Source of the DNA: a virus
Taxonomy: Duplodnaviria > Heunggongvirae > Uroviricota > Caudoviricetes
Reading direction: 5' to 3' (one strand)
Length of the DNA: 6,102 nucleotides
IMG/VR virus record: IMGVR_UViG_2617270976_000019
Made by a program: the position numbers and the translations under genes. Within the stretch, counting starts at the first letter, position 1; every line of letters starts with the position of its first letter. Positions 5,313 to 6,102 of the stretch are shown here, piece by piece. The notes beneath the pieces are model-generated. The model worked only from the letters and a program-made list of their open reading frames with translations. It was not told where the DNA came from and did not search any database.

Positions 5313-5388
5313 AGTGGCGAACCTCCTGATTGGATTAGGCTTCGCCCTATGTTGAAGTGATTGTGCCTGACAAACAGCTAAGCGCAGT

Positions 5389-5406
5389 TGTACCGTTATT
5401 CACACA
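5389..5406 (-). promoter_or_regulatory. TGT-N12-ACA dyad (TGTGTGAATAACGGTACA on the minus strand); candidate Ogr/Delta-responsive late promoter element upstream of gpE
   Basis: The P2/P4 late-promoter activator site is recalled as TGT-N12-ACA centred near -55. This dyad lies about 80-95 bp upstream of the gpE ATG in the invertase-gpE spacer. No convincing -10 hexamer was identified, and chance occurrence in 142 bp is a few percent. Confidence 0.3.
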
Positions 5407-5452
5407 AAATGACGGTATTTGTCTACTTGCAGGGATAATCAAAATAATGCTG

Positions 5453-5464
5453 ATTCAGGGGGAT
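5453..5464. repeat. Left copy of a 12-bp perfect inverted repeat (ATTCAGGGGGAT) overlapping the invertase stop codon
   Basis: Exact reverse-complement match to 6026..6037, read directly from the sequence. Confidence 0.4.
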
Positions 5465-6021
5465 TCATTACTCTTATTTGCCGGAAATTTTCTATAAATT
5501 GTGGAAACACCCACATCAAAAATCAGTGCAATACGCTGTCTTGATTCTCCGGCCTCGAGTAAACGCCCAATCTGTGCCCACTGTTCGGTGGTCAACTTAG
5601 GACGGCGTCCACCTACTCTGCCTTTGGCACGAGCTGCAGCCAGCCCTGCCCTGGTACGTTCAACTATCAGTTCGCGTTCCATTTCAGCCAGGGCACCCAT
5701 GACATGAAAAAAGAAACGGCCCATTGGGGTACTGGTATCAATACTGTCAGTCAGGCTTCGGAAATTCACACCACGCTGGCGCAACTCCTCTATCAGCGTA
5801 ACAAGATGCCGCATACTGCGCCCCAACCTGTCCAGCTTCCAGACAACCAGCGTGTCTCCTGCCGATAGTGTCCTGAGCAGCTTTTTCAGCCCCGGTCTGT
5901 CGGACTTAGTGCCACTGATTTTATCCTCAAAAATCCGCTCACATCCCGCGCAGTTCAGTGCATTACGTTGCAAATCGGTGTTCTGGTCATTTGTTGACAC
6001 GCGTACATAGCCAATAAGCAT
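5455..6021 (-). CDS. Serine-recombinase DNA invertase of the Hin/Gin/Cin/Pin (Din) family, 188 aa
   Basis: N-terminal MLIGYVRVSTNDQNTDLQRNAL with the catalytic-serine motif, the strongly conserved LVVWKLDRLGRS and TPMGRFFFHVMGALAEMERELIVERT blocks, and a C-terminal helix-turn-helix (…GVSTIYRKF…). The ORF track starts at ATG 6027, but the GGGGGG Shine-Dalgarno abuts that codon; the in-frame ATG at 6021 has about 6-nt spacing and gives the MLIGYV N-terminus typical of the family. Confidence 0.85.
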   Translation of the reverse strand: MLIGYVRVSTNDQNTDLQRNALNCAGCERIFEDKISGTKSDRPGLKKLLRTLSAGDTLVVWKLDRLGRSMRHLVTLIEELRQRGVNFRSLTDSIDTSTPMGRFFFHVMGALAEMERELIVERTRAGLAAARAKGRVGGRRPKLTTEQWAQIGRLLEAGESRQRIALIFDVGVSTIYRKFPANKSNESP

Positions 6022-6025
6022 GATC

Positions 6026-6037
6026 ATCCCCCTGAAT
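6026..6037. repeat. Right copy of the 12-bp perfect inverted repeat (ATCCCCCTGAAT), overlapping the invertase start and Shine-Dalgarno
   Basis: Exact reverse complement of 5453..5464. Together the two copies bracket the invertase ORF almost exactly. Confidence 0.4.
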
Positions 6038-6076
6038 AAAAACCGGAGATGATGCCAGTTAGCCGTTATCTCTGCA

Positions 6077-6102
6077 TTTTCATAAACGTTGGTTTGGGAG
6101 AA
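6077..6102 (-). other. hix/gix/cix-like invertase crossover site (26 bp, imperfect dyad around a central AA), cut by the window edge
   Basis: Minus-strand sequence TTCTCCCAAACC-AA-CGTTTATGAAAA matches the recalled hixL TTCTTGAAAACCAAGGTTTTTGATAA at about 20 of 26 positions, including the AAACC-AA-xGTTT core. It lies about 55 bp upstream of the invertase start, as gix, cix and pix sites do relative to gin, cin and pin. Confidence 0.55.

What the first reader, a model, noticed from the sequence alone, without database searches (positions are those of the whole stretch)
5313..6102. Invertase sits where the tail sheath and tube genes should be
In P2-family phages the late operon runs FI (sheath), FII (tube), E, E', T, U, D, and this sheath-tube-chaperone-tape measure order is conserved across contractile-tail phages. 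Here E/E'-T-U-D-ogr is intact and tightly coupled, but the 142 bp upstream of gpE leads straight into a Din-family invertase gene. Either the sheath and tube genes were deleted, leaving a defective prophage or tail-module remnant, or invertase-mediated recombination has rearranged the module. A retained TGT-N12-ACA element in the spacer could still drive E-T-U-D from a late promoter.
Basis: partly seen in the sequence, partly recalled or inferred. Interest (0 to 1): 0.6.

Follow-up and report, generated by a model that had tools for sequence, protein, structure and literature searches.

The report
Prophage missing sheath and tube genes
This is a P2-family prophage of a faecal E. coli that lost its tail sheath gene, tail tube gene and half of the tail chaperone gene in one clean 1.8-kb deletion, which is ordinary prophage decay except that the deletion ends at a spot in the chaperone gene where at least a dozen other prophages have broken too.

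Summary
The window is the last 6,102 bases of contig JNQT01000047.1 of E. coli 2-316-03_S4_C2. It is 99.8% identical to phage Cartapus (Peduoviridae, Elveevirus) except for a private 1,839-bp in-frame deletion. That junction lies 52 nt outside the flagged interval. The TGT-N12-ACA element is the native sheath-operon late promoter. The breakpoints carry no invertase crossover-like site and no repeat, only 1 nt of microhomology. Two independent assemblies give the same junction, and about 790 complete E. coli genomes carry the intact version. Verdict: an ordinary deletion-inactivated prophage. One unexpected extra: the E-side breakpoint is the midpoint of a tandem hexamer (ATGGAT|ATGGAT). Thirteen distinct deletions in different phages, hosts and integration sites end there, extending in either direction. 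Its mechanism is unexplained.

The parts
6077..6102 (.). 26-bp imperfect-dyad crossover site of the invertase (TTTTCATAAACGTTGGTTTGGGAGAA). It is the invertase-proximal boundary of the invertible tail-fibre segment. The contig and the window end here.
   Evidence: Equals Cartapus L001 9817-9842. It is the outer end of a 75-nt inverted repeat whose partner (L001 11348-11373) lies inside the tail-fibre gene.
5455..6027 (-). Gin/Din-family serine DNA invertase gene (190 aa from the first ATG; annotated as 188 aa from 6021 in relatives). Intact and in its native position.
   Evidence: Pfam Resolvase plus HTH_7; Mu Gin 3UJ3 E=8e-93 over the full length; phrog_125 DNA invertase E=1e-101; 100% identical to Cartapus gp23.
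5313..5454 (-). Native 142-bp invertase-to-sheath intergenic spacer. It carries the sheath-operon late promoter PF and the sheath gene's ribosome-binding site (AGGAGG 8 nt before the ATG).
   Evidence: Identical to the 142-bp spacer between invertase and FI in Cartapus (L001 9053-9194). Sequence read.
5389..5406 (.). TGT-N12-ACA dyad, the Ogr/B activator-binding element of PF.
   Evidence: the pattern alone is not significant: 1.68 expected by chance in the window. Its centre is 85 nt upstream of the ATG. The same element lies at -78 to -81 in four relatives, and the annotated B-protein site of 186 pJ lies at -82.5.
5262..5312 (-). Remnant of sheath gene FI: start codon plus codons 2-17 (MAQDYHHGVRVVEVNEG).
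   Evidence: PHROG sheath-fragment families match residues 1-18.
5261..5261 (.). Deletion junction. One shared base (T on the plus strand, A on the coding strand). 1,839 bp (613 codons) of the intact phage are missing here.
   Evidence: Window 1-5261 = L001 1902-7162 and window 5261-6102 = L001 9001-9842.
5097..5260 (-). 3' part of tail-chaperone gene E (codons 47-100 plus stop), fused in frame to the FI remnant. The single surviving ATGGAT unit is at 5261..5256.
   Evidence: Chimera = FI(1-17)+E(47-100) exactly; Pfam TAC_7 profile positions 36-78 of 79 only.
5136..5142 (-). TTTTTTG slippery site for the -1 frameshift that makes E+E'. Retained.
   Evidence: the predicted frameshift product is 116 aa.
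4963..5082 (-). E' reading frame (GpE family), overlapping the start of T.
   Evidence: Called gene with PF06528 in the source contig (L002 1022-1141); Cartapus gp27.
1893..4970 (-). Tape-measure gene T (1,025 aa). Full length, with two private missense changes (A14T, P978L).
   Evidence: this exact protein is found only in this isolate.
1411..1896 (-). gpU tail gene, intact.
   Evidence: Pfam Phage_P2_GpU E=7e-44.
314..1414 (-). gpD baseplate hub/late control gene, intact.
   Evidence: Pfam Phage_GPD; the exact protein is widespread in intact prophages.
27..245 (-). ogr late-gene activator (72 aa from the ATG at 245; the 87-aa ORF from the GTG at 290 is a mechanical extension).
   Evidence: Pfam Ogr_Delta; called as 72 aa in the source contig and in relatives.

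Best explanation
The window is the right-hand end of a Cartapus-like P2-family (Peduoviridae, Elveevirus) prophage integrated next to ssrA in E. coli 2-316-03_S4_C2. One 1,839-bp deletion removed sheath gene FI from codon 18, all of tube gene FII and the first 46 codons of chaperone gene E. It fused FI codons 1-17 in frame to E codons 47-100. Everything upstream (invertible tail-fibre boundary, Gin-like invertase, late promoter PF, sheath ribosome-binding site) and downstream (frameshift site, E', T, U, D, ogr) is in its native position. On induction, PF should still drive a useless FI'-'E fusion plus T, U and D, but no contractile tail can be built, so the prophage is defective (inferred). 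The deletion arose by illegitimate, recombinase-independent joining with 1 nt of microhomology (shown). Its E-side end is the midpoint of a tandem hexamer, ATGGAT|ATGGAT, which is a recurrent breakpoint in this phage group (shown). My best guess for why is that replication slippage at the repeat frees a nascent 3' end, which then re-primes at an ectopic microhomology. That last step is inferred, with low confidence.
For: Deletion: two collinear matches to Cartapus at 99.8% and 100% identity with 1,839 bp missing. Chimera = FI(1-17)+E(47-100) exactly, backed by Pfam and PHROG partial matches. Native order: tail fibre, invertase, FI, FII, E, E', T, U, D, ogr in Cartapus, in about 790 complete E. 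coli genomes that each span 7,941 bp, and in 10 of 10 contigs encoding the identical gpD. Real rather than artefact: the NCBI (MaSuRCA) contig and an independent Logan contig of SRR1186598 are identical across the junction, and no repeat flanks it. Private and probably recent: the junction is absent from 5,426 complete E. coli genomes and three other collections; the chimeric protein is a singleton among about 15 billion proteins; the closest intact relatives differ by 4 bases in 6.1 kb. Prophage context: ssrA and smpB lie 0.6 kb beyond ogr. The intact relative is induced and packaged (PMC9928086). Hotspot: 13 distinct junctions at the same E46|47 boundary; 7 of 19 cluster-level junctions in an exhaustive search, binomial P=5e-10. 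Repeat copy number varies from 1 to 4 in natural alleles.
Against: I therefore cannot show that the remaining prophage genes are present, or that no second P2-like prophage supplies sheath and tube in trans. Read-level support was not examined directly; the two assemblies probably derive from the same read set. For the mechanism: two hexamer units are a weak slippage substrate, partner sites lie up to 13.6 kb away, and no stable DNA structure is predicted at the site. Template switching is therefore only a best guess.
Confidence: 0.88

Rival explanations
1. Assembly artefact: the isolate carries an intact prophage and the 1.8-kb gap was created by the assembler.
For: The source is a short-read draft assembly (100-bp Illumina reads). 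The window lies at a contig end. No other genome shares the junction.
Against: Two different assemblers give an identical junction. There is no repeat at the breakpoints that could collapse: only 1 nt is shared, and the longest direct word within 40 nt is at chance level. Deletions with the same E-side end exist in other genomes, including a closed one.
Confidence: 0.04
2. Invertase-mediated rearrangement: the Gin-like recombinase deleted or moved the sheath-tube segment by acting on secondary crossover sites.
For: An intact invertase gene and one of its crossover sites lie within 1 kb of the junction. Din invertases are known to use quasi-sites occasionally (my own knowledge).
Against: The best match to the 26-bp site within 15 nt of either breakpoint is 13/26, which 1.5% of all positions reach. 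The breakpoints share 1 nt, not a 2-bp core inside a dyad. Deletions ending at the same E site occur in a prophage that has an acyltransferase gene instead of an invertase at this position (L020).
Confidence: 0.02
3. Natural alternative architecture: a functional phage in which the invertase directly precedes a short E gene and sheath and tube are encoded elsewhere.
For: The fused ORF is in frame with a strong ribosome-binding site, and all downstream genes are intact. The rest of the isolate's genome was not seen.
Against: The first 17 codons are those of the sheath gene and E lacks 46 of its 100 codons. Every relative examined, from 100% down to about 65% sheath identity, keeps FI-FII-E contiguous. 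The architecture is unique to one isolate.
Confidence: 0.02
4. Selected domestication: the in-frame fusion and the retained T-U-D-ogr module are kept because they benefit the host, so the recurrent E47 junction reflects selection rather than mutation bias.
For: Several hotspot deletions are in frame (window, L020, L022, L023, L036, L031). T-U-D-ogr is retained in the left-going events.
Against: The hotspot is two-sided. Five events keep E(1-46) and delete T, U or D instead, so no common product is preserved. In-frame cases are favoured by detection through a protein search. Each allele is rare or private. The window's T carries two private missense changes, which suggests relaxed constraint if anything.
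Confidence: 0.04

Closest known systems
Escherichia phage Cartapus (prophage 4 of E. coli LF82; NC_070909; Peduoviridae, Elveevirus)
   Same: 99.8-100% nucleotide identity over the whole window. It has the same invertase, 142-bp spacer, T, U, D and ogr, and the same ssrA-side prophage end. It is reported to be induced and packaged at a low level (PMC9928086).
   Different: Cartapus has full FI (390 aa), FII (171 aa) and E (100 aa). The window lacks 1,839 bp of them and has 10 substitutions, 3 of them private.
Phage P2 / 186 late tail operon (FI-FII-E-E'-T-U-D with an Ogr/B-dependent promoter)
   Same: Same gene order downstream of the lesion. Same E/E' -1 frameshift site. Same type of activator dyad at the same distance from the sheath ATG as the annotated 186 pJ B site.
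   Different: The two members of these lineages fetched here (phage 186 and P2_AC1) have no invertase upstream of the sheath gene. Their E genes lack the MDMD hexamer repeat (P2 sequence from my own knowledge). Here sheath, tube and half of E are missing.
Mu G segment / P1 C segment / e14 P segment (Gin, Cin, Pin tail-fibre inversion switches)
   Same: Gin-like recombinase (E=8e-93 to Mu Gin). A 26-bp imperfect-dyad crossover site at the end of alternative tail-fibre C-terminal exons, next to the invertase gene.
   Different: Only one crossover site falls inside the window, and the invertible segment lies beyond the contig end. The switch is unrelated to the deletion.
Cryptic or 'grounded' prophage remnants produced by deletion, for example the P2-type ogrK-D' remnant of E. 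coli K-12 (my own knowledge; general review PMC6379469 listed, not read)
   Same: Loss of essential structural genes by deletion, leaving a non-inducible or non-productive prophage.
   Different: This one appears very recent: it is private to one isolate, differs from intact relatives by 4 bases and carries a single lesion in the window. Its breakpoint coincides with a recurrent hotspot.
RecA-independent illegitimate deletion at short repeats or microhomologies (copy-choice/template switching; gyrase-mediated short-homology-independent recombination). From my own knowledge.
   Same: Junctions with 1-5 nt of microhomology, no recombinase site and no IS element.
   Different: Classical cases have both ends in direct repeats. 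Here one end is fixed to within 1-2 nt at the centre of a two-unit hexamer repeat, and the other end is arbitrary and up to 13.6 kb away on either side.

Membership tests
Gin/Din-family serine DNA invertase | N-terminal resolvase/invertase catalytic domain with the active-site serine (YVRVSTxxQ motif) | tested here: met
   PF00239 E=2e-53 over residues 5-137; sequence MLIGYVRVSTNDQ.
Gin/Din-family serine DNA invertase | C-terminal HTH_7 DNA-binding domain, about 190 aa in total, and full-length similarity to Gin/Hin | tested here: met
   PF02796 E=1.5e-15; Mu Gin 3UJ3 E=8e-93 over residues 3-186; phrog_125.
Gin/Din-family serine DNA invertase | Pair of inverted 26-bp crossover sites flanking an invertible tail-fibre segment next to the gene | tested here: inconclusive
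   One site is present at 6077-6102. The partner and the segment lie beyond the contig end and are seen only in Cartapus.
Gin/Din-family serine DNA invertase | Fis-dependent recombinational enhancer and demonstrated inversion | not tested
   No scan for Fis sites was done. Inversion activity needs read-level or experimental data.
Complete P2-type contractile-tail operon (FI-FII-E-E'-T-U-D) | Full-length sheath gene FI | tested here: not met
   Only codons 1-17 of 390 remain.
Complete P2-type contractile-tail operon (FI-FII-E-E'-T-U-D) | Tube gene FII | tested here: not met
   Entirely within the missing 1,839 bp. No Phage_tube ORF in the window.
Complete P2-type contractile-tail operon (FI-FII-E-E'-T-U-D) | Full-length chaperone E with the E+E' frameshift | tested here: not met
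   E lacks residues 1-46. The slippery site TTTTTTG and the E' frame are retained.
Complete P2-type contractile-tail operon (FI-FII-E-E'-T-U-D) | T, U, D and ogr present and coupled | tested here: met
   Pfam matches for all four; overlapping stop and start codons.
Complete P2-type contractile-tail operon (FI-FII-E-E'-T-U-D) | Ogr-dependent late promoter with TGT-N12-ACA about 55 nt upstream of the transcription start | tested here: met
   The dyad lies at -85 from the ATG, the conserved position in relatives and equivalent to the 186 pJ B site. Promoter activity itself was not tested.
R-type tailocin / domesticated tail module | Sheath, tube and baseplate genes present without head genes | tested here: not met
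   Sheath and tube are absent at this locus. The baseplate region is beyond the contig end.
IS- or transposon-mediated adjacent deletion | Mobile-element end retained at the junction | tested here: not met
   The junction is FI sequence joined directly to E sequence. IS1 is found only in an unrelated case, L029, 6 nt away.

The most novel reading that the evidence does not exclude
The midpoint of the ATGGAT|ATGGAT repeat in gene E may be a site-specifically nicked or cleaved position, cut by a host or phage enzyme such as a topoisomerase, an HUH nickase or an anti-phage nuclease. That would make it a built-in fragile site that repeatedly disables the tail module of Elveevirus/Felsduovirus-type prophages, rather than a passive slippage site. 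The window's deletion would be one product of that process.
Probability: 0.2. Interest if true: 0.7.

Novelty: new member of a known kind. Interest (0 to 1): 0.35.

Why it matters
As posed, the finding is ordinary: one more prophage disabled by a deletion, in a single faecal isolate. It does show that an ORF called "gpE" from the sequence alone can be a fusion, and that an invertase next to a tail operon is normal for this phage group.

The part worth following up is the breakpoint. Thirteen distinct deletions share one end to within 1-2 nucleotides. They come from E. coli, E. albertii and more divergent phages, from at least two integration sites, and they extend in either direction by up to 13.6 kb.

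If this reflects a defined mechanism, it would be a tractable natural system for studying illegitimate recombination. It would also be a predictable route by which P2-family prophages lose virion production, which matters for prophage domestication and for predicting inducibility from genome sequence.

Tried and rejected
**Invertase-mediated deletion.** I scored both breakpoints against the two real crossover sites. The best match was 13/26, which is background.

**Homology-driven deletion.** The longest shared direct word within 40 nt of the breakpoints is 7 nt, reached in 132 of 500 shuffles.

**Hairpin or cruciform at the hotspot.** DNA folds of 50 and 100 nt on both strands give z-scores of +0.5 to +1.1.

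**gpA pseudo-origin or other second copy of the hotspot sequence.** The best match elsewhere in the phage genome is 16/24, and there is none in gene A.

**IS1 as the cause.** A genuine IS1 sits 6 nt from the hotspot in L029, with target duplication GTGAACGCG. No deletion junction contains IS sequence.

**Shared motif at partner breakpoints.** None was found.

**Junction searches.** The 36-mer junction was absent from the GTDB representative genomes, IMG/VR and the JGI metagenomes.

**IUPAC pattern scans for further hotspot events.**
- The metagenome scan gave 85 hits: none of the 78 with enough upstream sequence had E context, and the two at contig ends did not match the phage either.
- The genome-contig hit was a chance match.
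- IMG/VR gave one true hit, the same allele as strain 300709.
- The right-side pattern found nothing in IMG/VR.

**Sibling isolates.** The exact T protein is unique to this isolate, so siblings could not be identified. The exact D protein is too common to help.

**Literature and RNA families.** Literature searches found no description of a gpE deletion hotspot. Rfam found nothing in the window.

**First inverted-repeat scan.** Default settings missed the crossover sites; a shorter seed and a wider region found them.
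Full report
**What is in the window.** All genes are on the minus strand. Reading in the direction of transcription they are:

| Feature | Window coordinates |
|---|---|
| Serine invertase | 6027..5455 |
| Spacer (142 bp) | 5454..5313 |
| 71-aa ORF | 5312..5097 |
| E' frame | 5082..4963 |
| Tape measure T | 4970..1893 |
| U | 1896..1411 |
| D | 1414..314 |
| ogr | 245..27 |

Pfam confirms Resolvase plus HTH_7, PhageMin_Tail, GpU, GPD and Ogr_Delta. The 71-aa ORF matches the tail-chaperone family TAC_7 only at profile positions 36-78 of 79. 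That was the first sign that it is not a complete E gene. The invertase matches phage Mu Gin over its full length (E=8e-93).

**The key comparison.** Relatives of the 4900-6102 stretch match only from window 5261 onward. The feature annotated under that end of the match is a tail sheath protein, not E.

The whole window matches Escherichia phage Cartapus (Peduoviridae, Elveevirus; prophage 4 of E. coli LF82) in two collinear pieces:
- Window 1-5261 equals L001 1902-7162, with 10 mismatches.
- Window 5261-6102 equals L001 9001-9842, with no mismatch.
- One base is shared at the join, and 1,839 bp (613 codons) are absent.

In Cartapus the order is tail fibre (with an invertible C-terminal segment), invertase, 142-bp spacer, sheath FI (390 aa), tube FII (171 aa), E (100 aa), E', T, U, D, ogr. 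The invertase and the spacer are therefore exactly where they belong. What is missing is FI from codon 18, all of FII and E codons 1-46.

The 71-aa ORF equals FI(1-17)+E(47-100) residue for residue. PHROG profiles agree independently: residues 1-18 hit families that the intact sheath matches from its first residue, and residues 8-69 hit only the C-terminal half of the E family. The -1 slippery site TTTTTTG (5142..5136) and the E' frame survive.

**Is the deletion real, and how old is it?** The window is 100% identical to the last 6,102 bases of contig JNQT01000047.1 (GCA_000704325.1) of E. coli 2-316-03_S4_C2. This is a phylogroup A, ST10 isolate (PMC8923075). Its name follows the subject/sample/colony scheme of a study of faecal E. 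coli from Tanzanian children, sequenced with 100-bp Illumina reads and assembled with MaSuRCA (PMC6222053).

- An independent Logan assembly of run SRR1186598 gives the identical sequence across the junction.
- No repeat at the breakpoints could cause an assembly collapse.
- None of 5,426 complete E. coli genomes spans the junction, while about 790 carry both flanks spanning 7,941 bp, which is the intact arrangement.
- All 10 sampled contigs that encode the identical gpD have invertase, sheath, tube and a 100-aa E.
- The junction 36-mer is absent from GTDB representative genomes, IMG/VR and JGI metagenomes.
- The chimeric protein is a singleton among about 15 billion proteins.
- The nearest intact relatives differ by only 4 bases in 6.1 kb. 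Three alleles are private: one intergenic (293) and two missense changes in T, A14T and P978L.

The deletion is therefore real, private and probably recent. Beyond ogr the contig continues with a 160-aa gene, ssrA (tmRNA), smpB, ratA, bamE and recN. This is a prophage end at the ssrA site.

The invertase's true crossover site is a 26-bp imperfect dyad at 6077-6102, at the very end of the contig. Its partner lies inside the tail-fibre gene of Cartapus. Neither breakpoint carries anything like it: the best match is 13/26, a score reached by 1.5% of all positions. The breakpoints also share no direct repeat beyond chance. Invertase-mediated rearrangement is therefore not supported.

The TGT-N12-ACA dyad at 5389-5406 is not significant as a bare pattern, since 1.68 are expected in the window. 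Its position is what is informative. Its centre is 85 nt upstream of the ATG. The same dyad lies at -78 to -81 in four relatives, and the annotated B-protein binding site of the phage 186 pJ sheath promoter lies at -82.5. It is therefore the native PF promoter. Together with the sheath gene's AGGAGG ribosome-binding site, it should now drive the FI'-'E fusion, E', T, U and D. This last point is inference.

**Consequence.** Without sheath, tube and a complete chaperone, no contractile tail or tailocin can be assembled from this locus, so the prophage is defective for virion production (inferred). The intact relative Cartapus is induced and packaged at a low level in LF82 (PMC9928086). I could not inspect the rest of the isolate's genome, so trans-complementation by another P2-like prophage is not excluded.

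**An unexpected observation: a recurrent breakpoint.** Searching for homologues of the chimera returned other chimeras that join E at exactly the same residue, "…|MDVNAMM". DNA was recovered for most of them. Reference coordinates are those of Cartapus, where ATG47 lies at 17552 within ATGGATATGGAT at 17546-17557.

Deletions that replace the left side (X|E47):

| Case | Left endpoint | Microhomology | Size |
|---|---|---|---|
| Window | FI nt 52 | 1 nt | 1,839 bp |
| L020 (ybjL-site prophage, no invertase at this position) | FI nt 83 | TAT | about 1.8 kb |
| L022 | FI about nt 94 | TATGG | about 1.8 kb |
| L023/L024 (E. albertii, ssrA site) | gpO nt 172 | TA | 13,568 bp |
| L036 (closed genome of E. 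coli 300709), same allele in IMG/VR contig L123 | gpO nt 800 | at least 1 nt | about 12.9 kb |
| L025-L027 | lysis region | at least 1 nt | not determined |
| L028 (divergent phage) | lysA region | at least 1 nt | not determined |
| P0099 | unknown partner | not determined | not determined |

Deletions that replace the right side (E46|X):

| Case | Right endpoint | Microhomology |
|---|---|---|
| L032 | D nt 236 | 1 nt |
| L031 (phage 74% identical) | D about nt 1040 | GGATA |
| L033 | into T | not determined |
| P0139 | unknown partner | not determined |
| P0216 | unknown partner | not determined |

That makes 13 distinct junctions. L020 and L022 could be related by descent, because they sit at the same chromosomal site and differ by 9 nt at the junction.

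An exhaustive HMMER search with full-length E has no positional bias. In it, 7 of 19 cluster-level junctions fall at this one codon boundary. The binomial probability is 5e-10 for one boundary, or 9e-7 allowing three.

Natural full-length E alleles carry 1, 2 (the norm), 3 or 4 MD units, so the hexamer repeat itself varies in copy number. The L020 and L026 junctions were each searched in the 5,426 complete E. coli genomes and found in none, like the window's own junction, so these alleles appear rare.

**Mechanism of the hotspot.**

Excluded or unsupported:
- Invertase sites.
- IS elements at the junctions. An IS1 in L029 lies 6 nt away, with its own 9-bp target duplication, and is a separate event.
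- DNA hairpins.
- A second copy of the sequence in the phage, for example at the origin in gene A.
- A shared motif at the partner sites.
- Selection for a particular product, because deletions run in both directions.

What remains is a mutational hotspot. My best guess is that slipped-strand misalignment at the tandem hexamer releases the nascent 3' end at the unit boundary. That end then re-primes at an ectopic 1-5 nt microhomology (template switching). This fits the copy-number polymorphism, the fact that every microhomology is drawn from the boundary sequence (TATGG or GGATA), and the two-sidedness. It fits poorly with partner distances of up to 13.6 kb and with only two repeat units. A site-specific nick or a topoisomerase cleavage site is the main alternative. 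I found no published description of this hotspot in the searchable library.

**Comparison with what is known, and verdict.**
- The invertase meets the tested criteria for a Gin/Din-family invertase.
- The locus fails three defining features of a complete P2-type tail operon (sheath, tube, full E). It retains the promoter, the frameshift site, T, U, D and ogr.
- It is a deletion-inactivated prophage, which is a known kind of thing, and this is a new, private instance.

Interest in the finding as posed is low. The recurrent breakpoint in gene E is the element that may deserve follow-up.

Noticed in passing
window 5256-5261 (single surviving ATGGAT unit); reference L030 17546-17557: The E-side end of the deletion is the midpoint of a tandem hexamer, ATGGAT|ATGGAT (codons MDMD). 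Thirteen distinct deletions in different phages, hosts and integration sites end there, extending left or right by up to 13.6 kb. One of them is in a closed genome (E. coli 300709). In an exhaustive search, 7 of 19 junction clusters fall at this one codon boundary (P=5e-10).
   Followed up: yes
homologues of E (P0007, P0008, P0009, P0017, P0022, P0032): The MD hexamer unit varies in copy number among otherwise full-length E proteins: 1, 3 or 4 units instead of the usual 2. This indicates slippage at the repeat.
   Followed up: partly
L029 1-29 and 30-38; L034 1201-1260: An IS1 element is inserted in gene E 6 nt downstream of the hotspot, with target duplication GTGAACGCG. IS1 used the identical 9-mer (followed by the same ATG) in ygcU of an unrelated strain, which suggests sequence-specific target choice.
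   Followed up: partly
window 6077-6102 (contig end): Both the NCBI contig and the Logan contig stop within 3 nt of the end of the 26-bp invertase crossover site. This would be expected if the sequenced culture held both orientations of the tail-fibre segment (active invertase), or simply because of the inverted repeat.
   Followed up: no
window 293, 2038, 4931: Three substitutions are private to this isolate against 11 intact relatives: one intergenic, and two missense changes in the tape measure (P978L, A14T). There are no private synonymous changes. This is weakly suggestive of relaxed constraint after the deletion, or of draft-assembly errors.
   Followed up: partly
L020 1-715; L023 8463-10865; L028 998-3679; L033 3392-5959; L022 658-3296: Other degraded prophages with hotspot deletions carry further lesions. 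These include a gpO-gpV in-frame fusion (408 aa), shortened tape-measure genes (800, 893 and 855 aa instead of 1,025) and a split T gene.
   Followed up: no
E codon 57 (CCCCC run); proteins P0125-P0128, P0131, P0132, P0149, P0171: Many database E proteins diverge after '...TVIP' into the frameshifted tails ASPVRH or PHLQPG. These are frameshifts at a C5 homopolymer, and could be real mutations or sequencing errors.
   Followed up: no
L030 15740-15757 versus 17540-17557: Sheath codons 27-32 and E codons 43-48 share a short patch, GCCATTnnnGnnATGG. Two of the three FI-E fusions (L020, L022) have their sheath-side ends inside it.
   Followed up: partly
E codon 42 (P0023, P0046) and codon 34 (P0042, P0148, P0150): There may be minor secondary clusters of rearrangement junctions at E42 and E34. 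The numbers are too small to judge.
   Followed up: no
L005, L006, L008, L012 versus L007, L009-L014: Prophages encoding the identical gpD occupy at least two chromosomal sites, one next to ssrA-smpB and one next to a type I secretion/BapA-like adhesin cluster. A third group (L020, L022, L025, L026, L032) sits next to ybjL-ybjM.
   Followed up: no
window 27-290: The mechanical 87-aa ORF starting at the GTG at 290 overstates ogr. Relatives and the source annotation aa from the ATG at 245.
   Followed up: yes
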